Assembly: GCF_013167455.1 (NCBI RefSeq)
Contig: NZ_CP038328.1
From: Escherichia coli O157:H7
GTDB lineage: Bacteria; Pseudomonadota; Gammaproteobacteria; Enterobacterales; Enterobacteriaceae
Length of the DNA: 64,000 bases
Reading direction: 5' to 3' (one strand)
Under the pieces are notes generated by a model. The model saw only the letters and a list, made by a program, of their open reading frames with translations. It was not told where the DNA came from and searched no databases. Every line of letters begins with the position of its first letter. The stretch's first letter is position 1. Of this stretch, positions 2,531-58,926 are shown piece after piece. The translations under genes were made by a program, and so were the position numbers.

Positions 2531-2556
2531 GCCCATCTCTGCATGGGCTTTTTTCT
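2531..2556 (+). terminator. Rho-independent terminator after glnA
   Basis: gcccat-ctctgc-atgggc stem-loop followed by TTTTTT. Confidence 0.7.
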
Positions 2557-2599
2557 CCGTCAATTCTCTGATGCTTCGCGCTTTTTATCCGTAAAAAGC

Positions 2600-2621
2600 T
2601 ATAATGCACTAAAATGGTGCA
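2600..2621 (+). promoter_or_regulatory. glnL promoter -10 (TATAAT 2600-2605) overlapped by NtrC operator
   Basis: tataatgcactaaaatggtgca: TATAAT hexamer overlapping a TGCAC-N7-GGTGCA dyad immediately upstream of glnL. Confidence 0.7.
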
Positions 2622-2642
2622 ACCTGTTCAGGAGACTGCTTT

Positions 2643-3692: not shown

Positions 3693-3703
3693 AGGTGACG
3701 TTT

Positions 3704-5113: not shown

Positions 5114-5224
5114 TTCACGGCTTGTGTGTAAAGATTGATTATTGAGCGCAAATTGCTGGTATTTTGCGCTTTACTGTTCCGATAAGTTCAGTATGATCTT
5201 GCCCGGAAAACGGGGAGAGTCATT

Positions 5225-5335
5225 ATGCTGGAATCAATAATTAATCTGGTATCGAGTGGCGCAGTTGACAGCCACACACCGCAAACTGCTGTTGCTGCCG
5301 TGCTGTGTGCCGCGATGATTGGGCTGTTTAGTTGA
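5225..5335 (+). CDS. yshB: Small protein YshB (36 aa)
   Basis: ggagag SD then ATG; MLESIINLVSSGAVDSHTPQTAVAAVLCAAMIGLFS, matches my recollection of the small protein between glnG and hemN. Confidence 0.6.
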   Translation: MLESIINLVSSGAVDSHTPQTAVAAVLCAAMIGLFS

Positions 5336-5369
5336 GTTTCAGATTGCTGATGAAGTGCTCTTTGTTCAT

Positions 5370-5457
5370 GCCAGATGCTGCGTGAACGCCTTATCCGGCC
5401 TACAAAAGCAATATTTTCAACAGGTTTTGTAGGCCTGATAAGCGTAGCGCATCAGGC
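5370..5457. repeat. REP/BIME palindromic elements
   Basis: gccagatgctgcgtgaacgccttatccggcctac and gtaggcctgataagcgtagcgcatcaggc, classic REP consensus. Confidence 0.75.
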
Positions 5458-5524
5458 AATCTTGTTCTCAGCACATTGATGGCGCTTTCGTTTTCTACTT
5501 TGTAAACGAAGCGCCATTCACTAT

Positions 5525-6898: not shown

Positions 6899-7086
6899 GC
6901 TCACTCCTTCCGATGGCGTCTCTGGCGGCTACGGCGTACCGGCGGATGCCCGTTTCGGGTCATCAGCCGGTTGCGCAGCCACTTTTGTCGCCGCGACAAC
7001 CGCTGTAGTTTAACGAATAACCACACCAGATAACATATAACCGGAAGGGTTATCAGCAGAACGGGAAGGCCCACGGCGGCAATCCG

Positions 7087-7593
7087 TTAGTTGCCCCGCA
7101 GCAGACGCATCATGTCTTCTTGCTTCTCGTCTTCTTCCTCTTCTTCGTCATCGTCATAAGAGAGGCCGAGTTTCTGCATCAACTCATCAATACGATCCAG
7201 TTTAGCATCCACCCAGGATTGCTCTTCGGCACTCAGGGTTTCGCCTGCTTCCAGACGTTCCAGCAGCGCATCCAGACGCTCATCCGTTTCTAGTAATTCC
7301 AACTCCGCCTGCGGTGAAAGCATAGGTTTCTCACTCTTCGGTTTGTGCTGTTTGGTGACTTTTTCAGTCACGCCCAATGGAATAGGGGTTTTACTGCCAA
7401 TACGTGGATCTTTCGGTGCGTTCTGGCCTTTGCTGCCTGACGTGTTGTTTCCGCCCGCTGCGCGGCTGCCCGGCGCATGACCACGACGTTTTTTCTGACG
7501 CTTGCGGTCACGAGCTTCCTGATTCAGCTCTTCGCGCGTTTTGCGACGCGCTTTTGCATGACCTTTGCTGCGTGATGGTGAAGATGGTTTCAT
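7087..7593 (-). CDS. yihI: Der GTPase-activating protein YihI
   Basis: [32 protein letters not shown]... basic N-terminus, acidic C-terminal tail. Confidence 0.9.
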
Positions 7594-7660
7594 AATGGTT
7601 CGTCTTTTAGCCGTTTTATTCAGTATAGATTTGCGGCGGAATCTAACAGAAAGCAAGCAA

Positions 7661-7904
7661 AGAAAAAAGGCGACAGATTACTCTGTCGCCTTTTTTCCTG
7701 ACTCATAACCCTTAACGGGTCTTACAATCCTTGCAGGCCGCCAACACACCCTGTTTTTCCATTAGCCGGAACAATCCGTGTTGATTCCATTTCCGTTTAA
7801 TTACGTCTCCGGACGTTTGTCTTCCTGACAATCCTCTGTCTTCGCCTCCTGGCGCTCCTGACCCTCATCCTGAGTCATTGTTCCTGTTAGCGTCCTCGCT
7901 CTAT
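7661..7904 (-). ncRNA. csrC: CsrC small RNA (CsrA-sequestering)
   Basis: Minus-strand sequence atagagcgaggacgctaacaggaacaatgactcaggatgagggtcaggagcg... with many GGA motifs, ending in ggcgacag/ctgtcgcc hairpin plus T-run; lies between yihI and engB. Confidence 0.85.
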
Positions 7905-8174
7905 GGGTGCTACTTTACGCCTTTGCTTTAAACAAACAATCAACCGCCATCAGTATTTGCACATTTTCAGAGTTTTATATAAAAGCAATTAACTGATTTA
8001 TATAGCTTATTTGACATGCATCGCAGAATTTTCTCTGCTATTTCGCATAAAGACTATCGGCAATGTCTCACAAAGCGTATGGCTTTTACTTACAACGCTC
8101 ACGCCGAAAAATCCGCCTTTTATTATGGTTCAGGTATAATCGCCGCAAAGCTTTGACTGACGGAGACGACCGCT

Positions 8175-8807
8175 TTGACTAATTTGAATTATCAACAGAC
8201 GCATTTTGTGATGAGTGCGCCTGATATTCGCCACCTACCTTCCGATACCGGAATTGAAGTGGCTTTTGCAGGCCGTTCCAACGCAGGTAAATCCAGCGCG
8301 CTGAACACGCTGACTAACCAGAAAAGCCTGGCTCGTACCTCAAAAACCCCTGGACGCACCCAGCTTATCAACCTGTTTGAAGTGGCTGACGGCAAGCGTC
8401 TGGTTGACTTGCCTGGGTACGGTTATGCGGAAGTCCCGGAAGAGATGAAGCGCAAATGGCAGCGCGCGCTCGGCGAGTACCTCGAAAAACGTCAGAGCCT
8501 ACAAGGTCTGGTAGTGCTAATGGATATTCGCCATCCGCTGAAAGATTTGGATCAGCAGATGATTGAGTGGGCGGTAGACAGCAATATCGCCGTGCTGGTA
8601 CTGCTGACCAAAGCGGACAAACTGGCAAGCGGCGCACGTAAAGCGCAATTGAATATGGTGCGTGAAGCGGTGCTGGCGTTTAACGGTGATGTGCAGGTTG
8701 AAACGTTTTCTTCGCTGAAGAAACAAGGCGTGGACAAGCTGCGGCAGAAACTGGATACCTGGTTTAACGAGATGCAGCCTGTAGAAGAAACGCAGGACGG
8801 CGAATAA
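8175..8807 (+). CDS. engB: Ribosome biogenesis GTPase EngB/YihA
   Basis: 210-aa [25 protein letters not shown]...[13 protein letters not shown]1 motif; apparent TTG start. Confidence 0.92.
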
Positions 8808-8825
8808 TTTTCTTACCTTAATGCT

Positions 8826-8910
8826 TATGCCGGATGTGGCGTATCCGGCCCATAAATTCAATAGATTACAATTCTACCGTTGGCCTGATAAACATGGTGC
8901 ATCAGGCATT
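8826..8910. repeat. REP-like palindromic elements
   Basis: gccggatgtggcgtatccggcc and ggcctgataaacatggtgcatcaggca imperfect REP units. Confidence 0.5.
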
Positions 8911-8932
8911 ACGGATCTTTCCTTTCGCCCAA

Positions 8933-9041
8933 TAAAAAACGCCCCAGTCATTACTGACTGGGGCGGCTAAAATATTCAGCCAAATCCGATTACGTGAAGT
9001 AAAAGGTCTGAAAGATAGAACATCTTACCTCTGTACCCTAC
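8933..9041 (-). ncRNA. spf: Spot 42 small RNA
   Basis: Minus strand reads GTAGGGTACAGAGGTAAGATGTTCTATCTTTCAGACCTTTTACTTCACGTAATCGGATTTGGCTGAATATTTTAGCCGCCCCAGTCAGTAATGACTGGGGCGTTTTTTA. Confidence 0.9.
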
Positions 9042-9188
9042 GCGACTAACTTTACTCTTTTTTGTTCAGTTCAGAAAGCACTTTTTGTAATTTTTTTTCA
9101 GTTGTTGCATAGGAATTTCTAATAGCCATCACAAAACGTGACAGCTTATGTTGCTTACTTACGAAAAAAGGGCATGTTCAGGCGAATC

Positions 9189-11975
9189 TTAGTGCGCCTG
9201 ATCCCAGTTTTCGCCACTCCCCACTTCCACCAGCAACGGCACATCCAGACGGGTACAGTTTTCCATCAGTTGATGAATCTGCTTCGCAACGGCATCGACA
9301 TCATCTCTATGAACTTCAAATACCAGTTCATCGTGTACCTGCATGATCATACGTACACGCGGTTGCTCAGCCTGTAACCACGCATCAACGGCAATCATCG
9401 CCCGTTTGATAATGTCGGCGGCGGTTCCCTGCATTGGCGCGTTAATGGCTGCACGTTCAGCCGCTGCACGACGAGCACCATTGCTGGATTTGATATCCGG
9501 CAGATACAGACGGCGTCCGTCCAGCGTTTCAACGTAGCCCTGCTCTTTCGCCTGAGCACGGGTGCGTTCCATATACTCCAGCACGCCAGGGTAGCGTTCG
9601 AAGTAAAGGTCCATGTACTTCTGCGCTTCTTTACGTGGAATGTTCAATTGCCGCGCCAGACCGAAAGCACTCATGCCATAAATCAGACCAAAGTTGATCG
9701 CTTTCGCGCTACGGCGTTGCTCGCTGGTGACGGTTTCCAGTGGCAAACCAAACACTTCTGCCGCCGTTGCCCGGTGGATATCTTTTCCTTCCGCGAATGC
9801 GGTCAGCAAGCCTTTGTCACGCGAGAGATGCGCCATAATGCGCAGTTCAATCTGCGAGTAGTCCGCTGAGACAATCACATAATCCTCTGGCGCAATAAAC
9901 GCCTGGCGGATACGACGACCTTCTTCGTTACGCACCGGAATGTTTTGCAGGTTAGGATCGGTTGACGATAAACGTCCCGTTGCAGTTACAGCCTGGTGAT
10001 AAGAGGTATGCACACGCCCGGTTTTCGGGTTGATCATCAGCGGCAGCTTGTCGGTGTAAGTCGATTTCAGCTTCGCCAGACCACGATACTCCAGAATCAC
10101 TTTTGGCAACGGATAGTCCAGCGCCAGTTCTTCCAGTACCTCTTCCGACGTTGACGGCGCGCCACCCGGCGTTTTCTTCAGCGGTTTAATGCCCTGTTTT
10201 TCAAACAGAATGGTTTGTAACTGCTTGGTGGAAGAAAGGTTAAATTCCTCACCTGCAATTTCATGCGCTTTCTTTTCCAGCTCAGCCAGACGAAGGGTGA
10301 GCTCTTCAGAATGATTGTGCAGCACTTTCGGATCGATCTTCACACCGTTACGTTCAATGCGTGAAAGTACTGGCACCAGCGGCATTTCGATATTCTCGAA
10401 GACGTTCAACGGCCCTTTGTGTTTTTGCAGATCCGGCCACATTTTCAGATGCAACTGCAAGGTGACATCAGCATCTTCGGCGGCGTAACGTCCGGCCTCT
10501 TCGAGGGCAATCTGGTTAAAAGTCAGTTGATTTTTGCCTTTACCCGCAATCTCTTCAAAAGTGATGGTTTTGTGCTTCAACCAACGTTCCGCGAGGCTGT
10601 CCATATCGTGACGCCCGGCAACGCTATTGAGAATGTAGGACTCCAGCATGGTATCAAACGCAATCCCACGCAGCTCAATGCCGTAATTCGCCAGAATACC
10701 GCGATCGTATTTCAGGTTTTGCCCGACCTTCAGCGCCTTTTCATCTTCCAGCAGCGGTTTTAGCAACTCGAGTGCACGCTCGCGAGAGATTTGATCGGGC
10801 GCATCAAGATAATCATGAGCAACCGGAATATATGCCGCTACGCCTGGCTCGATAGCAAAAGAAAGCCCGACCAGGTTAGCTGAGATGTTATCAAGGCTGT
10901 CGGTTTCGGTATCAAATGCAAATACCGGCGCTTTTTCCAGCTTCGCAATCCACGCTTTCAGTGTTTCTTCATCAAGGATGGTGACGTAGTTGTCATAAGA
11001 AATCACCGTTGCCGTCACTTCTGGTGCTTCGTCTGCAACACTGGTTTCCTGTGGCTTCGCGGCTGGTTTTGCCCCTTTGGCCTGTAACCATTTGCCCGCT
11101 TCGACATCAGCAGTCCAGCGTTTGAACTCATACTTTTTGAACAGCCCCAACAACTCTTCCGCTGCCGGTTGCTGCACTTCCAGTTGTTCACAGGTCAGCT
11201 CCAGTTCAACGTCGGTTTTAATCGTCGCCAGCTGGTATGAGAGATAAGCAACTTCTTTGTTTTGCTCGAGCTTCGCTGCCATTGTTTTCGCGCCACGGAA
11301 GCTCAACCCAGCAATTTTTTCTGGCTCGGCATACAGCGTATCCAGCCCGCCAAGACCTTGCAGCAATGCCTGCGCGGTTTTTTCACCGACGCCCGGTACG
11401 CCAGGAATGTTATCAGAGGAGTCACCCATCAGCGCCAGGAAATCGATGATCAGTTCTGGCGGCACGCCGTACTTATTCACCACCTCTTCCGGTCCGAGGA
11501 TGGTATTCGTCATGGTGTTGATAAGCGTAATATTTGGCGTCACCAGCTGCGCCATATCTTTATCGCCAGTGCTGATCAGCACCGGACGCCCGGCTTTTTC
11601 GGCTTCGCGCGCCAGAGTACCGATAACGTCGTCCGCTTCTACGCCAGAAACCGCCAGCAGCGGCAGTCCCATCGCTTTAACCATCGCGTGCAAGGGTTCG
11701 ATTTGTGCTCGCAGATCGTCCGGCATTGGCGGGCGATGTGATTTGTAATGTTCAAACAGTTCATCACGAAAGGTTTTTCCCTTGGCGTCAAAGACCACCG
11801 CTGCATGCGTCGGTTTATATTGCATGATCAGACTGCGCAGCATGTTGAGGACACCATACATCGCACCGGTCGGCTCGCCTGCGCTGTTAGTCAGCGGGGG
11901 AAACGCGTGATATGCGCGATAAAGATAAGATGAACCATCTACAAGGATAAGTGGATTTTGGGGGATCTGAACCAT
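9189..11975 (-). CDS. polA: DNA polymerase I
   Basis: 928-aa [45 protein letters not shown]... Confidence 0.97.
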
Positions 11976-12338
11976 AATGTCCGTGCCTGTTTATCAGATT
12001 ATGGGTAAAGGATGCCACAGACAGGATAAAAACATGAGTTTTTCACCGCTTTTCGTGAAAATCTTTTGTAGATCTTCTGGATCGCTCGCAAATCGTCATG
12101 TGGATAACTTTGTGCATAAATTATTTACATCGCTTTTAATTTATTATCATGCTTTTTACAGCATGATGTTTGTCTTTGTTTTTCATGCAGTTAAAAATAA
12201 ATCCATCCCTAATAATTGAGATAATGGGATTTTTTCTAATGTGGATAGATATGAATTATTTTTCTCCTTAAGGATCATCCGTTATTTGGGTCGTTTTCTG
12301 CTAAAATCTGCGCCTTGCGCTTCTTTAGCGCACTGTCT

Positions 12339-13271
12339 ATGGCTAACCTTTTGAATAAATTCATTATGACGAGAATACTCGCTGCGATAACCCTTTTGCT
12401 GAGTATCGTATTGACCATTTTGGTCACTATTTTTTGTTCCGTCCCGATCATCATTGCCGGGATTGTAAAACTATTGCTACCTGTGCCAGTCATTTGGCGA
12501 AAGGTTTCGCGTTTTTGTGATTTTATGATGTATTGCTGGTGTGAAGGTCTGGCGGTATTACTGCATCTGAACCCACACCTGCAATGGGAAGTTCACGGGC
12601 TGGAAGGGTTAAGTAAGAAGAACTGGTATCTGCTTATTTGTAACCACCGTAGTTGGGCAGATATTGTCGTACTGTGCGTGCTGTTTCGTAAGCACATTCC
12701 GATGAATAAATATTTCCTCAAGCAACAGCTGGCCTGGGTGCCATTTCTTGGCCTGGCGTGCTGGGCGCTGGATATGCCGTTTATGAAGCGTTATTCCCGC
12801 GCTTATTTATTACGTCATCCGGAGCGACGTGGTAAAGATGTTGAAACCACTCGGCGTTCTTGTGAAAAGTTTCGCCTGCATCCCACCACCATTGTCAATT
12901 TCGTTGAAGGCTCCCGTTTCACGCAAGAAAAACATCAGCAAACCCACTCCACTTTCCAAAACTTGTTGCCACCAAAGGCGGCAGGCATTGCGATGGCGCT
13001 AAATGTACTGGGTAAACAATTCGATAAACTGCTTAATGTTACGTTGTGTTATCCGGACAATAACCGTCAGCCGTTCTTCGATATGTTAAGCGGTAAACTG
13101 ACGCGGATTGTCGTACATGTGGATTTACAGCCTATTGCCGATGAGTTACATGGCGACTACATCAATGACAAAAGCTTTAAGCGCCATTTTCAGCAATGGC
13201 TGAACTCATTGTGGCAGGAAAAAGACCGACTTCTGACGTCGTTGATGTCATCACAGCGGCAGGACAAGTAA
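12339..13271 (+). CDS. yihG: Putative acyltransferase YihG (PlsC family)
   Basis: [24 protein letters not shown]... ; HxxxxD-type acyltransferase region ([10 protein letters not shown]). Confidence 0.88.
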
Positions 13272-13276
13272 ATTTT

Positions 13277-13304
13277 GCTCGCCTCTGAATGAGCAGAGGC
13301 GAGT
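13277..13304. terminator. Bidirectional stem-loop between convergent yihG and yihF
   Basis: gctcgcctctg-aatgag-cagaggcgag perfect inverted repeat. Confidence 0.6.
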
Positions 13305-13311
13305 GAGTATT

Positions 13312-14742
13312 TTAATGAACAAAACGTCCGGCACGAGACATAAATTCTTCTTCGCTCATCTCCTGTCCGTTAAAAACAACTTTACCCGGTGTATAACGCA
13401 GCTGCAGCGAGGCGGTATTGTTGTCAATCGTGATTAACTGAAACATCTGACCTAATGTCATCATCCCGCTGATTTGTTTATCAGCCTGCTTTTGCGCTTT
13501 TTCCGCATCCATTCCTTCAGATAAATTAAGCTGTTTTGCGGTTTCTGTGACGACATTAAGCGGTAACTTCACATCAAAATTGAGCGATTTGATATCTTTG
13601 TTTGTGGATGATGAAGATTTGGCTGGGTCGGCAATACTGATATCCAGATTGGCATTTAGTTCGCCGAGTGCGTTCTTCCATCTTACCGGTTGTTTAATGG
13701 TCGGCTCACTTTGTTGTAATAACGGTAAATACTCTTTGAACAATGCAGCATTCACTTCTTGCAGAGCAACTTCATCGTTTGCTAATTCAGGGTGTGCAGC
13801 AAGCTGCTTCTGCATCGCAATGTTATACTGGATGATAAATTGGCGCACCGCTGAGGGATCAATAGATTCAGCAATCAATGACCACTCACCACTACCGAGT
13901 TGCTGATTCCCTTTTGTTAACTTATCAAGTTCGTAGGTCAGATTGACATTGATATAATCTTTGTCTTTAACGCGATCCAGCCTGGTTTTTGCAACGAAAG
14001 CATCGATTTGGGCAACGTCTTCCCCGTGATTGATAATGTTAATCTGATTAAATTTCGACTCGCTTTCACCAACCGGAAATTTCTTTTCTTCTAATCGCGC
14101 CAGAGAATCAATGGTAAAACTTTTTGCCGTTACTTTGTTCATTGGTGATAATTGCAGAACAATATCTTCGACTTTGCCTTCAATATCCAGGTTAGACAAT
14201 GAACTACTATCACCATTAAAAGTAAACTGGCCCTCACCAAAAGAAAACTTTCCATACTCTGCAGGGGCAACATCTAATGTCGTAGAGAATGAGCCACCAA
14301 ACGCGAATCGCAATGTCGCTTCCACGGGCGATTTATTTTTCGCGGCGATAAATAGCGGTTGTGTCAGTTCATTATTCACTAAGTTCACTTTTGCCGCTGC
14401 CAGTGCTGGGATGACATTACCATGCATTAACATTGTGATGGGCAACGGACCGTGCTCAACATCCACATCAAATACAACTTTCTGGCCTGGCTTGATATTG
14501 AGATCGGGTGCACCGTTATCGAATGTCATTTGCATTTGAAAACGGGAATTAAAAAAGCCTTTGTCAAAATTTTGATAACTTAACGTCATATCGTAGGCAT
14601 GTTCACCTTTCTTTTTAGCATCGTTAAAATCTTTAATAAATTTTTCGACACCAGGCTGAATTTGCGTACCTGTGTACCATGTGCCACCACCCCAGATTAC
14701 GGCTAACGCAACAATAACACCTGTAGCTGACTTACGTATCAT
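13312..14742 (-). CDS. yihF: DUF945-type protein YihF
   Basis: MIRKSATGVIVALAVIWGGGTWYTG... N-terminal signal anchor; 476 aa from internal ATG. Confidence 0.85.
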   Translation of the reverse strand: MIRKSATGVIVALAVIWGGGTWYTGTQIQPGVEKFIKDFNDAKKKGEHAYDMTLSYQNFDKGFFNSRFQMQMTFDNGAPDLNIKPGQKVVFDVDVEHGPLPITMLMHGNVIPALAAAKVNLVNNELTQPLFIAAKNKSPVEATLRFAFGGSFSTTLDVAPAEYGKFSFGEGQFTFNGDSSSLSNLDIEGKVEDIVLQLSPMNKVTAKSFTIDSLARLEEKKFPVGESESKFNQINIINHGEDVAQIDAFVAKTRLDRVKDKDYINVNLTYELDKLTKGNQQLGSGEWSLIAESIDPSAVRQFIIQYNIAMQKQLAAHPELANDEVALQEVNAALFKEYLPLLQQSEPTIKQPVRWKNALGELNANLDISIADPAKSSSSTNKDIKSLNFDVKLPLNVVTETAKQLNLSEGMDAEKAQKQADKQISGMMTLGQMFQLITIDNNTASLQLRYTPGKVVFNGQEMSEEEFMSRAGRFVH

Positions 14743-14855
14743 ATAAATATTCCCTGATAAAACAGCAAAACTTTGAATATCCACTTATGCTGAAATAATG
14801 TCCAGCGGCAGGATGCATTATCAGAATGTATTTATATTTATTAAATAATAAAAAA

Positions 14856-14878
14856 AGCCCGTGAATATTCACGGGCTT
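14856..14878 (-). terminator. Rho-independent terminator downstream of dsbA
   Basis: gcccgtgaa-tat-tcacgggc hairpin flanked by A/T runs. Confidence 0.7.
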
Positions 14879-14896
14879 TATGTAATTTACATTGAA

Positions 14897-15523
14897 TTAT
14901 TTTTTCTCGGACAGATATTTCACTGTATCAGCATACTGCTGAACAAAAACATCCATATTGCTGGTATCCATACCCTGCGGATTCAGCTGATATTTACCGT
15001 TAACAAACATCGCCGGAACACCACGCAATTGCACGTCAGCTGCAGCTTTTTCCTGCTGAGCGACCAGAGATTTCACCACGAAGCTGTTCCACGCCGCGTC
15101 GTACTCTTCACCTTTAATACCTGCGTTGATAAATACATCGCGGATATCAGATGCTGAACGAATGGTCTGGGTTTTCTGTACGCCTTCAAACAGCGGAACA
15201 GTCACTTTGTCTTCCACGCCCAGCGCCATCGCCACAGCCCATGCCTGAGTCAGATCTTTGCCCAGGTCACCACCCATGAAGTTGACGTGGTATTTAGTCA
15301 TCTTCACGCCTTCCGGCAGTTTTTTCTTCACATTATCAGAAATATGCAGAACTTCTTCAAACTGATAGCAGTGCGGGCAGAAGAAAGAGAAAAACTCCAG
15401 CACTTGCGGCGCGCCAGCTACCGGTTTTTCCAGGGTAGTGTACTGTTTACCATCTTCATACTGCGCCGCCGATGCGCTAAACGCTAAAACTAAACCAGCC
15501 AGCGCCAGCCAAATCTTTTTCAT
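14897..15523 (-). CDS. dsbA: Periplasmic thiol:disulfide oxidoreductase DsbA
   Basis: 208 aa, signal peptide, CPHC active site ([16 protein letters not shown]). Confidence 0.97.
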
Positions 15524-15539
15524 GATCTACTCTCTCCGA

Positions 15540-16526
15540 TTAATACATAGGTGTTAATTGCAAAGGGGGTTCTTGTAGAACTTTTGCCTGTTCTATAAAA
15601 GTCGCCGTCTGTCGTAGCCAGTAATCTTCCCCGGTTAACCACGGGAAATTTTTCGGGAACGCGGGATCAGCCCAACGCCGCATTAGCCAGGCAAGATAAT
15701 AAACCAAACGCATGGCGCGTAAAGGTTCAATCAGTCCGATTTCAGCGGTGTCGAACTCGCTAAATTCTTCATAAGCTTCAATAATAGTTTCCAGTTGCAT
15801 CCGCTGCTCGGCTTTATCGCCATTGAGCAACATCCACAAATCCTGAATAGCTGGACCATTACGTGCATCATCCAGATCAACAAACATTGGACCATCGCGC
15901 CAGAGAATATTCCCGGCGTGGCAGTCTCCATGTAGCCGCAGAACGGTGAAATCTTCCCGCCAGTGTGCTGTAACGGCGGCGATCAGCTCATCTGTCGCTT
16001 TCAGGAATGCCGCTTTCAACCCGGAAGGTATCAGTGTAGCGTCCTCAAACAGCTTGCGTGGCTCAATGAGATATTCATTCAGACCGATGGTCGGGCGATG
16101 GATAAAAAGCTGTTTGCGCCCCGTCTGGTGCATACGCCCTAAATAACGCCCAACCGCTTCCATCTGATCGATATTATCAGCTTCGAACTGGCGACCACCG
16201 ACGCTTGGAAAAACAGCGAAATAAAATCCCTGATGATTCAATAAAGTCTGACCGTTAAAAGCCACAGGTGCTGCAACCGGAACTTCATCATTTACCAGCT
16301 GCAACGCAAATTGATGTTCTTCGAGGATTTGATCGGCTGTCCAACGTTCAGGACGATAAAATTTGACGACAAAACGTCGACGATCTTCGTCCTGAAATTG
16401 ATAGACACGGTTTTCATAGCTGTTAAGCGGGGTAAGACCGGAATCCACCCGGATCCCTTGCTCAAACAGAGCGTCCATGATGGTATCCGGGTGTAGTGTC
16501 TGGAAAGTAAAAGCGCTGTTGTTCAT
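15540..16526 (-). CDS. srkA: Stress response kinase A (YihE)
   Basis: 328-aa ORF MNNSAFTFQTLHPDTIMDALFEQGIRVDSG... Confidence 0.92.
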   Translation of the reverse strand: MNNSAFTFQTLHPDTIMDALFEQGIRVDSGLTPLNSYENRVYQFQDEDRRRFVVKFYRPERWTADQILEEHQFALQLVNDEVPVAAPVAFNGQTLLNHQGFYFAVFPSVGGRQFEADNIDQMEAVGRYLGRMHQTGRKQLFIHRPTIGLNEYLIEPRKLFEDATLIPSGLKAAFLKATDELIAAVTAHWREDFTVLRLHGDCHAGNILWRDGPMFVDLDDARNGPAIQDLWMLLNGDKAEQRMQLETIIEAYEEFSEFDTAEIGLIEPLRAMRLVYYLAWLMRRWADPAFPKNFPWLTGEDYWLRQTATFIEQAKVLQEPPLQLTPMY

Positions 16527-16602
16527 CCCATCATCCGGAAAACATTACGAATGATGAAGGATATCATTTCACGATGATTTTGGTGGCGCCGCTTACAAGC
16601 TT

Positions 16603-16872
16603 TTACTCTTTAATTACGCCGCGAGCGCGTAACAGCGCCGTTTTGAAGTCTTCTTCATAATCTTTCTGCAAACCCGGGATCACCGCATCTTTCGCGGAAT
16701 CACGCATTTTCAGGTGATAGATCAGAATGTCATCCGTCAAATCCGCCAGTTCGCCGTCAAAACCTGACTCTTTCGCCAGTTTCTGCAAAAATTGCAACAG
16801 GTTAAGGTCTGGCTCTTTTTGCCAGGCTGGCTGGAGGAGTTCAATAACTTCATTCAGACGTTTACATTTCAT
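16603..16872 (-). CDS. yihD: DUF1040 protein YihD
   Basis: [33 protein letters not shown]..., 89 aa. Confidence 0.85.
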
Positions 16873-16941
16873 AGTAATGCTCCTTACTCTTGAGACAGAC
16901 ACGTTAGCAGGGTCAATCCCACAATAAAAGAGGCGATATCG

Positions 16942-17526
16942 GTGAATCTGATGACGACGATAACAGGCGTTGTGCTGGCAGGCGGTAAAGCCAGACGAAT
17001 GGGCGGCGTAGATAAAGGATTGCTGGACTTAAATGGCAAACCGCTGTGGCAACATGTCGCTGACGCGCTTATGACGCAGCTCTCTCACGTCGTGGTTAAT
17101 GCTAATCGTCATCAGGAAATCTATCAGGCAGGCGGTCTGAAAGTGATTGAAGATTCACTGGCGGATTACCCAGGCCCTCTGGCAGGGATGCTTTCAGTAA
17201 TGCAGCAGGAAGCTGGTGAGTGGTTTTTGTTTTGTCCGTGCGATACGCCTTACATTCCCCATGATTTAGCCGCCCGGCTTAATCATCAGCGCAAAGATGC
17301 GCCTGTCGTGTGGGTCCATGACGGTGAACGCGATCACCCGACTATTGCTATGGTAAACCGCGCTATTGAGCCTTTATTACTAGAATATCTGCAAGCAGGA
17401 GAACGCCGGGTAATGGCATTTATGCGTCTGGCTGGCGGTCATGCGGTTGATTTCAGCGATCATAAAGATGCATTTGTTAACGTGAATACGCCAGAGGAGC
17501 TTGCCCGATGGCAGGAAAAACGATGA
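16942..17526 (+). CDS. mobA: Molybdenum cofactor guanylyltransferase
   Basis: 194 aa [22 protein letters not shown]..., LAGGxxxRMG motif. Confidence 0.93.
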
Positions 17527-18035
17527 TACCGTTACTCGCCTTTGCCGCGTGGAGTGGTACCGGAAAAACTACGCTTTTGAAAAAACTGATCCCGGCATTA
17601 TGCGCCAGAGGGATCCGTCCAGGGCTGATTAAGCATACGCACCATGATATGGATGTTGATAAGCCAGGCAAAGATAGCTATGAGCTGCGCAAGGCTGGCG
17701 CGGCACAAACCATCGTTGCCAGCCAGCAACGATGGGCCTTGATGACGGAAACACCAGACGAAGAAGAGCTGGATCTACAGTTTCTCGCAAGTCGAATGGA
17801 TACCTCAAAGCTGGATTTGATTCTGGTCGAAGGGTTTAAGCATGAAGAGATCGCAAAGATTGTGCTGTTTCGCGATGGAGCCGGACATCGACCTGAAGAA
17901 TTAGTGATAGACAGGCATGTTATTGCTGTAGCCAGTGATGTGCCGCTTAATCTTGATGTCGCATTACTGGATATTAATGATGTTGAGGGGCTGGCTGATT
18001 TTGTGGTGGAGTGGATGCAAAATCAGGACGGATAA
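17508..18035 (+). CDS. mobB: Molybdopterin-guanine dinucleotide biosynthesis adapter MobB
   Basis: 175 aa with Walker A GTGKTT; overlaps mobA 3' end by 19 nt. Confidence 0.92.
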
Positions 18036-18095
18036 GCAAGAGTAGGCTGGAGCAGACGCGCCAGCGTCGCATCCGGCATTTTTTTGCACCAACGC

Positions 18096-18123
18096 AAAAA
18101 GGCCATCCGTCAGGATGGCCTTT
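18096..18123 (-). terminator. rrn operon terminator (T1-type)
   Basis: ggccatcc-gtca-ggatggcc hairpin followed by T-run on minus strand, just 3' of 5S rRNA. Confidence 0.75.
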
Positions 18124-18134
18124 CGCTTTATTTG

Positions 18135-18254
18135 ATGCCTGGCAGTTCCCTACTCTCGCATGGGGAGACCCCACACTACCATCGGCGCTACGGCGTTTCA
18201 CTTCTGAGTTCGGCATGGGGTCAGGTGGGACCACCGCGCTAAGGCCGCCAGGCA
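18135..18254 (-). rRNA. rrfA: 5S ribosomal RNA
   Basis: 120-nt match to E. coli 5S (TGCCTGGCGGC...GGAACTGCCAGGCAT) on minus strand. Confidence 0.95.
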
Positions 18255-18346
18255 AATTCTGTTTTATCAGACCGCTTCTGCGTTCTGATTTAATCTGTAT
18301 CAGGCCGAAAATCTTCTCTCATCCGCCAAAACACCTTCGGCGTTGT

Positions 18347-21251
<2,905 letters not shown>

Positions 21252-54404: not shown

Positions 54405-55292
54405 ATGGATGCAAAACAAACGCGGCAGGGCGTATTACTCGCTCTTGCCGCTTATTTTATTTGGGGTATAGCCCCAGCGTACTTCAAGTTGATTTACTAC
54501 GTGCCCGCCGATGAGATCCTGACGCATCGCGTGATCTGGTCGTTTTTCTTTATGGTGGTGCTGATGAGCATTTGCCGCCAGTGGTCCTATTTAAAAACGC
54601 TGATTCAGACGCCACAGAAAATTTTTATGCTGGCAGTCTCTGCCGTGCTGATTGGTGGCAACTGGCTACTGTTTATCTGGGCGGTGAACAATCACCATAT
54701 GCTGGAAGCGAGCCTTGGTTACTTTATTAACCCGCTGGTGAACATTGTGCTGGGGATGATTTTCCTCGGCGAGCGATTCCGCCGGATGCAATGGCTGGCG
54801 GTGATTCTGGCGATATGTGGCGTGTTAGTCCAGCTGTGGACTTTTGGTTCGCTACCTATTATCGCGCTGGGGCTGGCATTTAGTTTTGCCTTCTACGGCC
54901 TGGTGCGCAAGAAGATTGCGGTAGAAGCACAAACCGGCATGTTAATTGAAACCATGTGGCTGCTGCCCGTGGCGGCGATTTACCTGTTTGCTATTGCCGA
55001 CAGCTCAACCAGCCATATGGGGCAAAACCCGATGTCGCTGAATTTACTGCTGATCGCCGCCGGTATTGTCACTACCGTACCGCTGTTGTGTTTTACCGCC
55101 GCTGCCACGCGCCTTCGTCTCTCAACGTTAGGCTTTTTCCAGTACATTGGCCCGACGCTGATGTTCCTGCTGGCTGTGACGTTTTATGGTGAAAAACCGG
55201 GTGCCGATAAGATGGTGACTTTCACCTTTATTTGGGTGGCGCTGGCAATTTTTGTGATGGATGCGATTTATACGCAGCGTAGAAAAAGTTAA
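54405..55292 (+). CDS. rarD: EamA/DMT-family transporter RarD
   Basis: 295 aa MDAKQTRQGVLLALAAYFIWGIAPAYFKLIYYVPADEILTHRV... Confidence 0.95.
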   Translation: MDAKQTRQGVLLALAAYFIWGIAPAYFKLIYYVPADEILTHRVIWSFFFMVVLMSICRQWSYLKTLIQTPQKIFMLAVSAVLIGGNWLLFIWAVNNHHMLEASLGYFINPLVNIVLGMIFLGERFRRMQWLAVILAICGVLVQLWTFGSLPIIALGLAFSFAFYGLVRKKIAVEAQTGMLIETMWLLPVAAIYLFAIADSSTSHMGQNPMSLNLLLIAAGIVTTVPLLCFTAAATRLRLSTLGFFQYIGPTLMFLLAVTFYGEKPGADKMVTFTFIWVALAIFVMDAIYTQRRKS

Positions 55293-55338
55293 GAATTAAC
55301 ATGGGTAGGCCGTTTAAAGAGCCTACCCACTGACTTAT

Positions 55339-55653
55339 TTATCTTTTTTTGAAAAAAATTAAGATAAGAAAAAGAACAATATTTGTTACAGGAAATCCCC
55401 CCAAAACTCCCCAGTACTTACTCCATCCTAGAGACATCGTATATCTACCAAGGATTTGACAAAACCCAAAACTTAACCCTATACCTATACTTCTTAAATT
55501 TAATGTCGTAGTCAGGCTTAAAATAAATAGAACAAGGATGGTAATAGCCCACCACAATAACCATGCCTTAACAAAATCAGATTTTTTGCTGTAAGGTTCT
55601 TTACCCAAGAACAACTGCCAAAAGTTACCATTTCCCATATAGAATCCATTCAC
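55339..55653 (-). CDS. Hypothetical small membrane protein (104 aa, about 3 predicted TM helices)
   Basis: Open frame in very AT-rich DNA where stops are frequent by chance; hydrophobic segments AWLLWWAITILVLFILSL, IGIGLSFGFCQILG, VTNIVLFLILIFF; no family assigned. Confidence 0.55.
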   Translation of the reverse strand: MNGFYMGNGNFWQLFLGKEPYSKKSDFVKAWLLWWAITILVLFILSLTTTLNLRSIGIGLSFGFCQILGRYTMSLGWSKYWGVLGGFPVTNIVLFLILIFFKKR

Positions 55654-55776
55654 CCAAGATATTGTTTATAGAATAAAAATACATTCCAATTATATTTAAT
55701 TAAAATATACCCCATCAATAAAAACTTACACACTCTAAATTACTACTGTATAGTTATCAATGCAAAGACTGCTATA

Positions 55777-55794
55777 TTGCATATATATATGCAA
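55777..55794. promoter_or_regulatory. Perfect 18-bp palindrome in divergent promoter region
   Basis: TTGCATATATATATGCAA is its own reverse complement; lies between the divergent 104-aa and 128-aa ORFs. Confidence 0.4.
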
Positions 55795-55853
55795 ACCACA
55801 TAATTCAGGTAATATATATTCAAAACAATTATATATATAAAACAATGTAAAAA

Positions 55854-56240
55854 ATGTTCAAATCATCCATCAGAAATATATTCTACCCATCCAAGCTTGA
55901 GCGTTTATCACGCTTTCAGTTCATAATCTATACATTAACATCATGGTCAATATTAATAACTTTGAATGATATCAACCTGGCTTTGAGTTTTATTCTGGTT
56001 ATTAATAATACCTATGTAAATATCAATATTGGAGCAAAAAGAATAAGAGATACTGGATGTAAGGCAATCTACTTTGTATTGATTTCATTGGGTTTGACAC
56101 TTTTTTCTATTATCTCTGCAGCAATTGAAGGGGTGAGATGTGAGTCATTAAGCGTCCAACTCAACGTGGCATGGATATTATTCACAACAATTATGTTATC
56201 TGCGATTCCCTCTGCTAAAATGTCGCTGTCAGCACACTAA
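55854..56240 (+). CDS. Hypothetical inner-membrane protein, DUF805(YhaH)-like (128 aa)
   Basis: ORF in AT-rich DNA; motifs LERLSRFQF and KRIRDTGCKA resemble the DUF805 signature (GRxxRKEYW ... RRLHDxxxSG) from memory; several TM segments. Confidence 0.6.
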   Translation: MFKSSIRNIFYPSKLERLSRFQFIIYTLTSWSILITLNDINLALSFILVINNTYVNINIGAKRIRDTGCKAIYFVLISLGLTLFSIISAAIEGVRCESLSVQLNVAWILFTTIMLSAIPSAKMSLSAH

Positions 56241-56264
56241 CTTACTCACAGCGACATCGTATAG

Positions 56265-56409
56265 TTACAGCCAGTTCTTGCGCTTAAAGTACAGATACGG
56301 TGCCAGGCCCGCGAGGATCATAAAGATAATCGCGCCTGGGTAGCCGAAACTCCACTTCAGTTCTGGCATAAACTCAAAGTTCATGCCATAGCTGGAGGCA
56401 ATCGGCGTA
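56265..56409 (-). repeat. Duplicated 3' end of corA (gene fragment; direct repeat of 57976-58120)
   Basis: About 145 bp nearly identical to the genuine corA 3' end; encodes ...[44 protein letters not shown] in frame; identity decays toward the inner edge. Confidence 0.9.
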
Positions 56410-56597
56410 GGAAAAAGTTTCCTAATCGGTAAATTCAATATTTTGTTATTAACAATGAGCAAGACCAATCATTAACGACGTTCTCTTCAGAGATGTAATG
56501 AAAAAATGTGAAGTGTACTTCTTTTTTAAATATTTTTTTACCCTAGCATTTGTTCTCAAATTGATATTGAGCTTAAATATAACCAAGGAAAATGTAA

Positions 56598-57446
56598 ATG
56601 AATAACACATTACTTCCATCAATTAATATTCCCTGTACACTTTTCGAAACTATTAGTTTATTTGATAATTATTCTGCTGATGATATGCAATATGGTGATA
56701 TGGTAGAACAAGATTTTCTCTCACTCGGCCTAAGCGATATCTCAGCAAAAGTTGATCCTTACAGACTTATTAAATACCATTTCCCTGGCCCAGGTTCTAT
56801 TAATGTTGCTTTTAGTGCCTCAAGTTCCGGAACAAAAATATCACAACGTGAATGCACTGATATTTTATTTGCAGAAATGAAAGAACTAGCAAAAATGTTT
56901 TCCTTTTTTGGACAATATAAAACACTTATCGAAGATCTGATTGAACATTTTAGATATGGAAATGGCAGCAATTTTCATAGCCAACAATTAAATTTATCTT
57001 TTCATGAAAAAATAAATAAATATGGTTATAATAGTCCAATACGAATAATCAAAGAATGTATCGAAAATGGCATTAATTCAACTCCCTCGACAGGATACCA
57101 ACCTCTTATCCTGCAAAGCATTAAAACCAAATTACTTTCATCAAGACTAAATAAATTTAATGACTTCGAGGACAGTTTTAATGGCTTAGGAATCAGTGTT
57201 CATGATATTTCAGCTCAAAAAATATCTCTTTTAAGTTTTCAAAAATACGCTATAGGATGGAGTGCAACAATTCATTTTGTAGCACAGGACCACTTCGGTC
57301 TTGATGTAACTGATATCAAAAACAAGACTTACAGCAAATATAGATTTTTTCGCATATGGTTCTTTTTACAACGGCATAAAGACTTTGCTTTCAAACCTTT
57401 TTTCACCAATTTTAACACTATCGAAAGAATCGAAAATTATCTATGA
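56598..57446 (+). CDS. Hypothetical protein, 282 aa, no signal peptide, no recognised family
   Basis: 849-nt ORF in about 30% GC DNA (estimated by eye), which is improbable by chance; AAGGA SD 9 nt upstream of ATG; stop overlaps next ORF start (ATGA). Confidence 0.8.
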   Translation: MNNTLLPSINIPCTLFETISLFDNYSADDMQYGDMVEQDFLSLGLSDISAKVDPYRLIKYHFPGPGSINVAFSASSSGTKISQRECTDILFAEMKELAKMFSFFGQYKTLIEDLIEHFRYGNGSNFHSQQLNLSFHEKINKYGYNSPIRIIKECIENGINSTPSTGYQPLILQSIKTKLLSSRLNKFNDFEDSFNGLGISVHDISAQKISLLSFQKYAIGWSATIHFVAQDHFGLDVTDIKNKTYSKYRFFRIWFFLQRHKDFAFKPFFTNFNTIERIENYL

Positions 57447-57934
57447 AAAGCAAACTCCAAAAAATTATATTATGTTTATTTCTTCTATGCTGCATCTATA
57501 ATTTATGGACATTGCGTCCTGTACAGATTTTGTATACATACTCTGATGCTGGCAATTCAGTCTTTCTGGTCGTTGATCATCTGCCATGGACTGACAGCGA
57601 TAAAATAAATTGGTATCTGAAGCATCAGAATGAAATTAAAAATCAACATCCCCTACCAGAAGGTAGTTGGCATACCTGGTATGTCATTGATATCGGTAAT
57701 GGCTTCACTGACTATAAAAAATATATCGAAGGGCCGTATGAAGATCTCTACTGTTTCCCGACAATTAAGAGCAATGATAATTGCATCACGAAAAATTACT
57801 TAATGGTTATTAATGAATACCCTTATCGTAACACTCATATTGGTATTAACGATTTTACTGAGTATCAATTAACACAAGAAAATAAAATAGAGCAAGTTTT
57901 CAATCCGCATAACTTTAAAAAAGACAATTTTTAG
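57443..57934 (+). CDS. Hypothetical membrane-anchored or secreted protein, 163 aa
   Basis: N-terminal K-rich then hydrophobic stretch (MKSKLQKIILCLFLLCCIYNLWTL) typical of signal peptide/anchor; translationally coupled to upstream ORF; ends 41 nt before convergent corA stop. Confidence 0.75.
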   Translation: MKSKLQKIILCLFLLCCIYNLWTLRPVQILYTYSDAGNSVFLVVDHLPWTDSDKINWYLKHQNEIKNQHPLPEGSWHTWYVIDIGNGFTDYKKYIEGPYEDLYCFPTIKSNDNCITKNYLMVINEYPYRNTHIGINDFTEYQLTQENKIEQVFNPHNFKKDNF

Positions 57935-57975
57935 AAATAAGCCGGATAAAAAAATAGCTTTATCCGGCACTCATA

Positions 57976-58926
57976 TTACAACCAGTTCTTCCGCTTAAAG
58001 TACAGATACGGTGCCAGGCCCGCGAGGATCATAAAGATAATCGCGCCTGGGTAGCCGAAACTCCACTTCAGTTCTGGCATAAACTCAAAGTTCATCCCGT
58101 AGCTGGAAGCAACCAGCGTTGGCGGCAGGAACACGACGGATACCACCGAGAAAATTTTGATGATGCGGTTCTGCTCGATGTTGATAAAACCCATTGCCGC
58201 CTGCATCAGGAAGTTCACCTTCTGGAACAGGGATTCGTTATGCGGCAGCAGGGATTCGATATCTCGCAGGATTTCACGCGCCTGCTCCAGTTGCCCACCC
58301 GGTAAGCGTGCTTTACGTACCAGGAAGTTGAGCGCGCGCTGGGTATCCATCAGACACAGGCGCACTTTCCAGCCGATATCTTCCAGTTCCGCCAGAGTGG
58401 AGAGCGCCTCGTCGTACTCATCGCCCTGATGCCCTTCCATAATCACCCGGCTCAATTGCTCCAGGTCGCTATAGATATTTTCAATTTCATCTGCCAACTG
58501 TTCGATTTTGGTTTCGAACAGATCCAGCAGCAACTCGTAGGCGTTACCGTCTACCATCGACTGGCTACGGGCACGCATACGATACAGACGAAAAGCGGGC
58601 AGTTCACGCTCACGCAGAGTAAACAGACGACCATCACGGATGGTAAATGCCACAGTGGAGTTACCGGCGTGATCTTCCGCATCTTCAAAGAAGAAGAAGG
58701 AGTGAATATGCAGGCCGTCATCGTCTTCAAAGAAACGTGCCGATGCTTCGATGTCTTCCAGTTCCGGGCGGGTTGCCAGGCTCTGGCCAAGTTCAGATTG
58801 TACGCGCAGTCGCTCGTCGTCGTCCGGTTCGACAAGATCAATCCATACTGCATTTACAAGGGGTTGTGACTCTTCGACTTCCAGCCGGGTCAGTCGGTTA
58901 TTTTCCAGTTGAAATGCGCTCAGCAT
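57976..58926 (-). CDS. corA: Magnesium/cobalt transporter CorA
   Basis: [43 protein letters not shown]... with [10 protein letters not shown] signature near C-terminus; 316 aa. Confidence 0.96.

What the first reader, a model, noticed from the sequence alone, without database searches (positions are those of the whole stretch)
55777..55794. Perfect 18-bp palindrome TTGCATATATATATGCAA in the divergent promoter region
A perfect dyad of this length in a promoter region is a likely operator for a dimeric regulator, possibly controlling both divergent small membrane-protein genes. The (AT)n core also gives strong intrinsic bendability and is a potential H-NS nucleation site, typical of silenced horizontally acquired DNA.
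Basis: seen in the sequence. Interest (0 to 1): 0.35.

Follow-up and report, generated by a model that had tools for sequence, protein, structure and literature searches.

The report
Strain-variable AT repeat, incidental palindrome
The 18-base palindrome is real, but it is a short AT-AT-AT repeat that changes length between E. coli strains and is missing from related versions of the same locus, so it is most likely an ordinary by-product of AT-rich acquired DNA and not a regulator's docking site.

Summary
TTGCATATATATATGCAA is at 55777-55794 exactly as described. It lies in a 215-bp, 68-88% A+T spacer between two divergent small membrane-protein genes, in a low-GC island between rarD and corA of E. 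coli O157:H7. The palindrome is an (AT)5 microsatellite, self-complementary by nature, plus 4-bp arms TTGC/GCAA. Of about 1432 complete E. coli genomes carrying the segment, 1042 have (AT)5, 356 have (AT)4 and 4 have (AT)6, so the half-site spacing is not fixed. Diverged alleles with both flanking genes intact have a broken dyad (TTGCATGGATATAACAA; TTGCATAGATATAGCAA) or none. A 38-bp block 16 bp to the left, holding a good minus-strand promoter, is invariant in those with a broken dyad and partly conserved in the allele that has none. No second copy exists in the window, no regulator gene lies in the island, and no Enterobacterales species representative carries the 18-mer. A perfect palindrome of at least 18 bp arises in 28% of shuffled windows. 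The tract is stable in the O157:H7 clone (357 genomes with n=5, one O55:H7 relative with n=4), so it is not a phase switch. The operator reading is not supported. The AT-rich, H-NS-prone acquired-DNA reading is plausible but applies to the whole island and was not tested. Low interest.

The parts
55777..55794 (.). Perfect 18-bp palindrome TTGC(AT)5GCAA
   Evidence: Read directly. Unique in the window with up to 3 mismatches. As single-stranded DNA the hairpin is only -5 kcal/mol, z = -2.1.
55781..55790 (.). (AT)5 dinucleotide microsatellite core, with copy number that varies among strains
   Evidence: n=4, 5 and 6 alleles have identical flanks (alignments A1 and A3). Counts are 356, 1042 and 4 genomes. 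The O157 haplotype has n=5 in 357 genomes and n=4 in one O55:H7 strain.
55812..55819 (.). Second AT run, (AT)4, also length-polymorphic
   Evidence: Strain S3 has one extra AT unit here. Run listed.
55830..55839 (.). Third run, (TA)5, also polymorphic
   Evidence: Length and sequence differences among strains in alignments A1 and A3. Run listed.
55724..55761 (-). 38-bp block conserved across diverged alleles. It contains the predicted minus-strand sigma-70 promoter TTGATA-17-TAGAGT (55760 to 55732), probably for the 99-aa gene. The palindrome would lie at about -52 to -69 relative to its inferred start site.
   Evidence: Promoter scan gives 9/12 and my approximate PWM gives 11.6 bits. The block is identical in O157, A37, SCU-172 and L013. 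In L008 the block is only partly conserved, but TTGATA-17-TAGGAT is retained. No transcript data.
55689..55718 (-). Second predicted minus-strand promoter, TTGATG-18-TATAAT
   Evidence: 10/12 and 12.8 bits. Prediction only.
55777..55804 (+). Weak candidate plus-strand promoter TTGCAT-16-CATAAT, whose spacer contains the AT run. The spacer is 14, 16 or 18 nt for n=4, 5 or 6.
   Evidence: 7.6 bits in my PWM scan. It drops out of the top candidates at n=4. It falls below the threshold of the tool's own scan. It is not conserved in L008.
55339..55638 (-). 99-aa predicted membrane protein gene (Sakai ECs_4748, WP_000526425.1)
   Evidence: Annotated in RefSeq. No Pfam or NCBIfam family. dN/dS 0.21-0.25.
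55854..56240 (+). 128-aa predicted membrane protein ORF, a distant YigG/DUF805-like relative, not annotated in RefSeq
   Evidence: 29% identity over its full length to K-12 YigG, E = 3e-5. Weak PRK11371 hit. Intact and the same length in diverged alleles, with dN/dS 0.17. Absent from the PGAP and Sakai annotations.

Best explanation
The palindrome is an incidental consequence of a short (AT)n microsatellite in the AT-rich spacer of a horizontally acquired island. Replication slippage adds or removes whole AT units. This step is inferred from unit-step length variants with identical flanks. Any (AT)n run is its own reverse complement, so the run together with the 4-bp arms TTGC/GCAA reads as a perfect dyad at every n. 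There is no dedicated sequence-specific regulator. Whatever the tract does is generic: it adds TpA-rich, flexible, easily melted DNA to a 68-88% A+T divergent promoter region. DNA of this kind in E. coli carries many promoter-like sequences and is typically coated by H-NS. That last point is inferred from composition and from published work on the K-12 counterpart locus. The selectively maintained control element of the spacer is the neighbouring block at 55724-55761, which holds a minus-strand promoter, and not the palindrome.
For: Unit-step variants (AT)4, (AT)5 and (AT)6 have identical flanks. Population counts are 356, 1042 and 4. Both n=4 and n=5 occur among unrelated serotypes, for example O103:H2 and strain W with n=4 and O26, O111 and O104:H4 with n=5. 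An O55:H7 strain differs from O157:H7 over 169-171 nt only by one AT unit. Two further AT/TA runs within 60 bp are also polymorphic. In diverged alleles the dyad is degraded or missing: TTGCATGGATATAACAA in A37 and SCU-172, TTGCATAGATATAGCAA in L013, and no counterpart in L008-L012. Both flanking ORFs stay intact in these alleles and are under purifying selection. The spacer as a whole is 74-82% identical between alleles, no better than the flanking coding sequence. The 38-bp block next to the palindrome is invariant in four of the five allele types and partly conserved in L008. GC is 26-35% against about 50% in the flanks. The segment is present in 1435 of 5426 genomes. A palindrome of this length appears in 28% of shuffled windows. 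PMC3661553 reports K-12 yigF-yigG as a promoter island. PMC7229825 reports an H-NS-repressed, AT-tract-dependent promoter inside yigG.
Against: Given an (AT)5 run, four complementary flanking pairs are only about a 1% coincidence. The arms are fixed in about 1400 genomes, although those genomes are 95-100% identical across the whole segment, so this says little. The direction of change (dyad gained or dyad lost) is not resolved, because the two flanking genes give conflicting distances among the three allele groups. No transcription, H-NS or footprint data were available for this locus (one search found no paper). The whole O157:H7 genome could not be scanned for degenerate copies.
Confidence: 0.72

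Rival explanations
1. The dyad is an operator bound by a dimeric transcription factor that controls one or both divergent membrane-protein genes.
For: It is a perfect dyad with 4-bp G/C-containing arms in a divergent intergenic region. It lies at about -52 to -69 from the inferred start of the conserved minus-strand promoter, or at about +17 to +34 of a weak plus-strand candidate. Both are positions where regulators can act. The arms are about a 1% coincidence.
Against: Half-site spacing varies by 2 bp, roughly 70 degrees of helical twist, between common alleles. The right arm is mutated or the dyad is absent in alleles with intact genes. No other copy exists in the window with up to 3 mismatches. 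The 24 exact copies among 100,044 species representatives are scattered in unrelated taxa, and none is in Enterobacterales. No regulator gene lies in or beside the island. From my own knowledge of E. coli motifs (CRP, LexA, Fis, NtrC, PurR, the sigma-54 -24/-12 element), checked by eye only, none fits.
Confidence: 0.06
2. The AT run is the spacer of a plus-strand promoter, TTGCAT-N-CATAAT, for the yigG-like gene. Changes in n reset the spacer to 14, 16 or 18 nt and so tune or switch expression between lineages. This would be a slow version of the TA-repeat promoter switch of Haemophilus influenzae hifA/hifB.
For: TTGCAT (55777-55782) and CATAAT (55799-55804) are 16 nt apart at n=5. The candidate survives at n=6 and is lost at n=4. 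CATAAT is kept in the S3 and fM51a variants. n really does vary between lineages.
Against: The candidate is weak: 3/6 plus 5/6 matches, 7.6 bits, below the threshold of the tool's own scan. A quarter of carrier genomes have n=4, which would disable it. It is absent from L008-type alleles, where the gene is still intact. The tract is short at 4-6 units. It is invariant across 357 genomes with the O157 haplotype, so there is no switching on clonal time scales. There is no transcript evidence.
Confidence: 0.12
3. The 18-mer is a specific high-affinity nucleation site for H-NS or another nucleoid protein such as Fis or IHF, from which silencing of the island spreads.
For: It has alternating TpA steps in a 26-35% GC island with patchy strain distribution. 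The K-12 counterpart locus is reported as a promoter island, and yigG is reported to hold an H-NS-repressed intragenic promoter (PMC3661553, PMC7229825).
Against: The palindrome does not match the 10-bp motif TCGATAAATT within 2 mismatches, while 15 such matches lie elsewhere in the island. The 40-bp stretches that include it (68-78% A+T) are among the least AT-rich parts of the spacer, which reaches 88% on either side. It is not conserved in diverged alleles. The G-to-C spacing is 14 bp, not the 15 bp of the Fis core motif (my own knowledge of the motif, read from the sequence).
Confidence: 0.08
4. The palindrome acts through structure, as a DNA cruciform or as an RNA hairpin such as a terminator, attenuator or 5'-UTR element.
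For: A 7-bp stem with a 4-nt loop is predicted. It would lie in the 5' UTR if the weak plus-strand promoter at 55725-55754 is used.
Against: The predicted hairpin has a free energy of only -5 kcal/mol, and 11 of 200 shuffles fold as well. No T-run follows on either strand and no terminator was called there. There is no Rfam match. It is not conserved.
Confidence: 0.02

Closest known systems
Short polymorphic simple-sequence repeats in non-coding E. coli DNA (replication-slippage microsatellites)
   Same: A tandem dinucleotide run. Whole-unit length differences among strains with identical flanks. It lies in non-coding, AT-rich DNA, and neighbouring runs are also polymorphic.
   Different: Nothing essential. 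It attracts attention only because (AT)n is self-complementary and happens to be flanked by 4 complementary base pairs.
TA-repeat promoter switch between hifA and hifB of Haemophilus influenzae (phase variation by changing the -35/-10 spacing; recalled from the literature, not read here)
   Same: An AT/TA dinucleotide repeat in a divergent intergenic region. The repeat number would change the spacer of a candidate promoter.
   Different: The tract is 4-6 units, not about 9-11. It is invariant within the O157:H7 clone (357 genomes against 1 relative). The promoter is weak and unproven, and it is absent in other alleles.
Palindromic operators of dimeric repressors (LacI, TetR or Cro-type)
   Same: A perfect inverted repeat in a promoter region.
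   Different: Variable half-site spacing, no conservation, no cognate regulator gene nearby and no further copies found.
H-NS-silenced AT-rich 'promoter islands' with AT-tract-dependent spurious promoters, including K-12 yigF-yigG (PMC3661553, PMC7229825)
   Same: The same chromosomal position between rarD and corA. One gene is a distant yigG homologue. Very low GC and many promoter-like hexamers.
   Different: The island sequence and gene order differ from K-12. H-NS binding and spurious transcription were not measured for this allele.

Membership tests
Palindromic operator of a dimeric transcription factor | Two inverted half-sites at a fixed centre-to-centre distance | tested here: not met
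   The symmetry is perfect, but the distance between the TTGC and GCAA arms is 8, 10 or 12 bp in 356, 1042 and 4 genomes.
Palindromic operator of a dimeric transcription factor | Conservation of the site in orthologous promoter regions above the background of the spacer | tested here: not met
   The dyad is broken in A37, SCU-172 and L013 and absent in L008-L012. An adjacent 38-bp block is invariant in the first three.
Palindromic operator of a dimeric transcription factor | A cognate regulator gene nearby, or further copies of the site forming a regulon | tested here: inconclusive
   No regulator gene lies in the island or its flanks. There is no second copy in the 64-kb window and none in any Enterobacterales species representative. 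The full O157:H7 genome could not be scanned.
Palindromic operator of a dimeric transcription factor | Demonstrated protein binding | not testable with these tools
   Needs EMSA, footprinting or ChIP.
Simple-sequence repeat (slippage microsatellite) | Tandem head-to-tail copies of a 1-6 nt unit | tested here: met
   (AT)5 at 55781-55790.
Simple-sequence repeat (slippage microsatellite) | Alleles that differ by whole repeat units while the flanks are identical | tested here: met
   n=4, 5 and 6 in alignments A1 and A3. The O55:H7 strain TB182A is 100% identical to the n=4 version of the O157 sequence over 169 nt.
Phase-variable contingency locus (repeat-controlled promoter) | The repeat lies between the -35 and -10 elements of a functional promoter | tested here: inconclusive
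   Only a weak candidate, TTGCAT-16-CATAAT. No start-site data.
Phase-variable contingency locus (repeat-controlled promoter) | Frequent length change within a clone, which needs a long tract | tested here: not met
   4-6 units only. The O157 haplotype has n=5 in 357 genomes and n=4 in a single O55:H7 genome.
Xenogeneic, H-NS-silenced AT-rich island | GC content far below the host genome, and patchy distribution among strains | tested here: met
   26-35% GC against about 50%. Present in 1435 of 5426 genomes. K-12 carries different genes at the same site.
Xenogeneic, H-NS-silenced AT-rich island | H-NS occupancy and de-repression in an hns mutant | not testable with these tools
   Only literature on the K-12 counterpart locus (PMC3661553, PMC7229825). 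No paper mentions ECs4747 or ECs4748.
H-NS high-affinity nucleation site (10-bp motif TCGATAAATT, recalled from the literature) | Match to the motif at the palindrome | tested here: not met
   No match within 2 mismatches overlaps 55777-55794.
Intrinsic terminator or structured RNA | A stable G+C-rich hairpin followed by a U-run, or a match to a described RNA family | tested here: not met
   No terminator called at the site. Free energy of -5 kcal/mol. No Rfam match at E of 1 or below.

The most novel reading that the evidence does not exclude
The three polymorphic AT/TA runs in this 215-bp divergent spacer act as evolutionary tuning knobs. Unit changes in the palindromic (AT)n run reset the spacer of the TTGCAT/CATAAT promoter to 14, 16 or 18 nt. 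They also shift everything upstream of the conserved minus-strand promoter. E. coli lineages would then differ heritably in expression of an unannotated YigG-like membrane protein, a slow lineage-level analogue of repeat-controlled promoters in Haemophilus and Neisseria.
Probability: 0.1. Interest if true: 0.3.

Novelty: new member of a known kind. Interest (0 to 1): 0.1.

Why it matters
It matters little. The practical lesson is that a perfect palindrome built on an (AT)n run in AT-rich acquired DNA should not be read as an operator without comparative support. Here, strain comparison shows variable spacing and no conservation. The by-products are modestly useful. One is a conserved, apparently real 128-aa yigG-like gene that RefSeq does not annotate. 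Another is a conserved 38-bp promoter block that is the better candidate for control of this locus. The third is a simple AT-unit marker that separates O157:H7 (n=5) from the one O55:H7 genome that carries the same haplotype (n=4).

Tried and rejected
- **Rfam:** a scan of 54800-58200 at E of 1 or below found nothing.
- **Terminator scan:** none at the site.
- **Exact 18-mer scan of 100,044 species representatives:** 24 scattered hits in unrelated, mostly AT-rich taxa and none in Enterobacterales, so there is no evidence of a shared motif. This used the only genome-contig scan.
- **Whole-genome search for degenerate copies in O157:H7:** not possible. BLAST needs at least 30 nt, masks the AT run, and an 18-nt match would not reach the E-value limit.
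- **Known binding motifs:** I compared CRP, LexA, DnaA, PurR, NtrC, Fis, IHF, ArcA and the sigma-54 -24/-12 element by eye from memory. None fits. TACTGTATAGTTATCAAT at 55743-55760 resembles half a LexA box but lacks the CAG half.
- **H-NS 10-mer scan:** enriched in the island, as expected from composition, but not on the palindrome.
- **Literature:** searches for ECs4747 and ECs4748 found no paper. A search for E. coli SSR polymorphism papers returned only unrelated organisms. The SSR and hif comparisons therefore rest on my own recollection.
- **L008-type allele:** a search of complete E. coli genomes found none close to it (best full-length matches 85.5%). That search instead led to the A37/SCU-172 allele.
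- **Pfam and NCBIfam for the 99-aa protein:** no family.

Full report
**Observation.** The sequence at 55777-55794 is TTGCATATATATATGCAA, a perfect palindrome. It cannot be extended, because A flanks it on both sides. It is the only match in the window even with up to 3 mismatches. It is the second-longest perfect palindrome in the 64 kb, after a 26-bp one at 14854-14879. Ten of its 18 bases are an (AT)5 run, which is self-complementary by construction. The non-trivial part is only the 4-bp arms, TTGC and GCAA.

**Chance.** In 300 block-wise dinucleotide-preserving shuffles of the window, 28% contained at least one perfect palindrome of 18 bp or more. Only 1.3% had one inside 55300-58000. Given an (AT)5 run, four complementary flanking pairs have a probability of about 0.6-1% at local composition. 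So the palindrome is real. It is mildly unusual locally and unremarkable for a reader scanning 64 kb.

**Setting.**
- The window is E. coli O157:H7, with 100% identity to many O157:H7 chromosomes.
- The palindrome lies in a 215-bp spacer between a 99-aa gene on the minus strand (55339-55638; Sakai ECs_4748, 'membrane protein') and a 128-aa ORF on the plus strand (55854-56240).
- The plus-strand ORF is not annotated by RefSeq in any genome I looked at. It is 29% identical over its full length to K-12 YigG and has a weak hit to PRK11371. It is intact and the same length in diverged alleles.
- Both ORFs have dN/dS of 0.17-0.25. 'Divergent promoter region between two small membrane-protein genes' is therefore a fair description.
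- The segment from about 55300 to 56250 has 26-35% GC against about 50% in rarD and corA. It is present in only 1435 of 5426 complete E. coli genomes. It replaces the yigG-yigF pair that K-12 has between rarD and corA. It is acquired-type, AT-rich DNA.

**What the palindrome is.**
- An alignment of five strains showed that the AT run varies in whole units with identical flanks: (AT)4, (AT)5 and (AT)6.
- I turned this into population counts with 100-104-nt queries. In those queries the 99%-or-better identity band can only hold genomes with the same n and at most one substitution. The counts are n=5 in 1042 genomes, n=4 in 356 and n=6 in 4, out of about 1432 carriers.
- Both common alleles occur in unrelated serotypes. 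O103:H2, O45:H2, strain W and O55:H7 have n=4. O157:H7, O26, O111 and O104:H4 have n=5. This implies recurrent change or recombination.
- With a 171-nt query carrying the O157 haplotype, 357 genomes have n=5. Only one has n=4: O55:H7 strain TB182A, which is otherwise 100% identical.
- The run therefore changes on evolutionary time and is stable within the O157:H7 clone. It is not a phase switch.
- Two more AT/TA runs within 60 bp, at 55812-55819 and 55830-55839, are polymorphic as well.

**Comparative test of function.** More diverged versions of the locus were recovered through the 128-aa protein and through a BLAST search with one of them.

| Allele | Source | Sequence at the palindrome position | Dyad |
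|---|---|---|---|
| Major allele | about 1400 complete E. coli genomes | TTGC(AT)4-6GCAA | perfect |
| L013 | metagenome contig; 128-aa protein 88% identical | TTGCATAGATATAGCAA | imperfect |
| A37, SCU-172 | complete E. coli genomes | TTGCATGGATATAACAA | broken, right arm mutated |
| L008-L012 | same synteny from pldA to corA; rarD 94% identical | ACATTATAG..AAAG | absent |

The 99-aa gene is annotated and the 128-aa ORF is intact in A37 and SCU-172, at 121 and 120 of 128 residues identical. Both are also intact in L013 and in L008. The spacer as a whole is only 74-82% identical between alleles.

The 38 bp at 55724-55761 are identical in the O157, A37, SCU-172 and L013 alleles and partly conserved in L008. 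This block holds a minus-strand promoter prediction, TTGATA-17-TAGAGT, which becomes TAGGAT in L008. Selection in this spacer is therefore visible, but it falls next to the palindrome and not on it.

**Operator reading.** A dimeric regulator needs a fixed half-site distance, and here that distance takes three values, two of them common.
- The site is not conserved.
- There is no second copy in the window.
- The exact 18-mer occurs only 24 times in 100,044 species representatives, in scattered, mostly AT-rich taxa and never in Enterobacterales.
- No regulator gene lies in or next to the island. The neighbours are rarD, two membrane proteins, a corA fragment, a DUF3289/YPO3983-family gene, a DUF943 gene and corA.

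I give this reading 6%.

**Other readings.**
- *Structure:* the hairpin is only -5 kcal/mol, and 11 of 200 shuffles fold as well. No T-run or terminator call accompanies it and there is no Rfam match.
- *Promoter tuning:* TTGCAT (55777) and CATAAT (55799) are 16 nt apart at n=5, 18 nt at n=6 and 14 nt at n=4. This resembles repeat-controlled promoters. But the candidate is weak at 7.6 bits and falls below the tool's own threshold. It would be disabled in a quarter of carriers, it is missing from L008-type alleles, and the tract does not vary within a clone. I give this 12%.
- *Specific H-NS or Fis nucleation site:* the 18-mer does not match the 10-bp H-NS motif. The 40-bp stretches that include it are among the least AT-rich parts of the spacer. 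I give this 8%.

The generic version is plausible: the whole island is H-NS-prone, AT-rich acquired DNA rich in promoter-like hexamers. It is supported by composition and by the literature on the K-12 counterpart. PMC3661553 reports yigF-yigG as a 'promoter island'. PMC7229825 reports an H-NS-repressed, AT-tract-dependent promoter inside yigG. It was not tested for this allele, and no paper mentions ECs4747 or ECs4748.

**Best explanation (0.72).** The palindrome is an incidental dyad created by a short AT microsatellite that slippage resizes, sitting in the AT-rich spacer of an acquired island.
- *Shown:* the anatomy, the unit-step polymorphism, the lack of conservation, the stability within O157:H7 and the conserved neighbouring block.
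- *Inferred:* slippage as the mechanism, promoter identities and H-NS involvement.
- *Unresolved:* whether the perfect dyad is derived or ancestral. The two flanking genes give conflicting distances among allele groups, which suggests recombination. It is also unknown whether degenerate copies exist elsewhere in the O157:H7 genome.

**Verdict.** The operator interpretation is not supported, and the AT-rich/H-NS interpretation is plausible only in a generic sense. This is an ordinary member of a known kind, a short polymorphic simple-sequence repeat. Interest is low (0.1).

Noticed in passing
window 55854-56240 (+): A 128-aa ORF that RefSeq does not annotate, neither in the PGAP genomes examined nor in Sakai, where it falls in the gap between ECs_4747 and ECs_4748. 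It looks like a real gene. It is a distant full-length homologue of K-12 YigG at 29% identity, it is intact and the same length in alleles down to 82% protein identity, and its dN/dS is 0.17. It has no Shine-Dalgarno sequence; an A-rich leader precedes the ATG.
   Followed up: yes
window 56265-56411 (-) and 57976-58122 (-): A 147-bp copy of the 3' end of corA lies 1.5 kb before the intact corA and is 94.6% identical to it. A low-GC DUF3289 (TIGR03034, YPO3983 family) gene and a DUF943 gene sit between the two. Strains A37 and SCU-172 lack this pair, and their yigG-like ORF abuts the intact corA. The pair therefore looks like an insertion that brought or duplicated a corA end.
   Followed up: partly
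window 55724-55761: A 38-bp block, CTTACACACTCTAAATTACTACTGTATAGTTATCAATG, is identical in four alleles that differ elsewhere in the spacer. It contains the minus-strand promoter prediction TTGATA-17-TAGAGT and a half LexA-box-like TACTGTATAG. It is the better candidate for a real control element at this locus.
   Followed up: partly
L004 (strain S3) 617-619, equivalent to window 55854-55856: Strain S3 has ATA in place of the ATG start of the 128-aa ORF, which suggests loss or re-start of the gene in that strain.
   Followed up: no
L006 (strain DETEC-E601) 3101-3864; also hit H275 (O111:H11 strain 88-19539): IS1 has replaced most of the island in DETEC-E601, leaving rarD, IS1, a truncated DUF943 gene and corA. 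An IS1 also interrupts the segment in an O111:H11 strain. The island appears to be dispensable.
   Followed up: no
L040 (strain SCU-172), alignment A3 columns 45-54, equivalent to window about 55683-55692: A 10-bp deletion in the spacer removes part of the predicted -10 region of the proximal minus-strand promoter, TTGATG-18-TATAAT.
   Followed up: no
window 14854-14879: The longest perfect palindrome in the window is 26 bp, AAAGCCCGTGAATATTCACGGGCTTT. It is G+C-rich with A/T ends and looks like a bidirectional terminator hairpin.
   Followed up: no
window 55303-55328: An 8-bp G+C-rich inverted repeat, GGGTAGGC...GCCTACCC, lies between the convergent ends of rarD and the 99-aa gene. It is probably a shared terminator at the left edge of the low-GC island. 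The tool's terminator scan did not call it, because no T-run follows.
   Followed up: no
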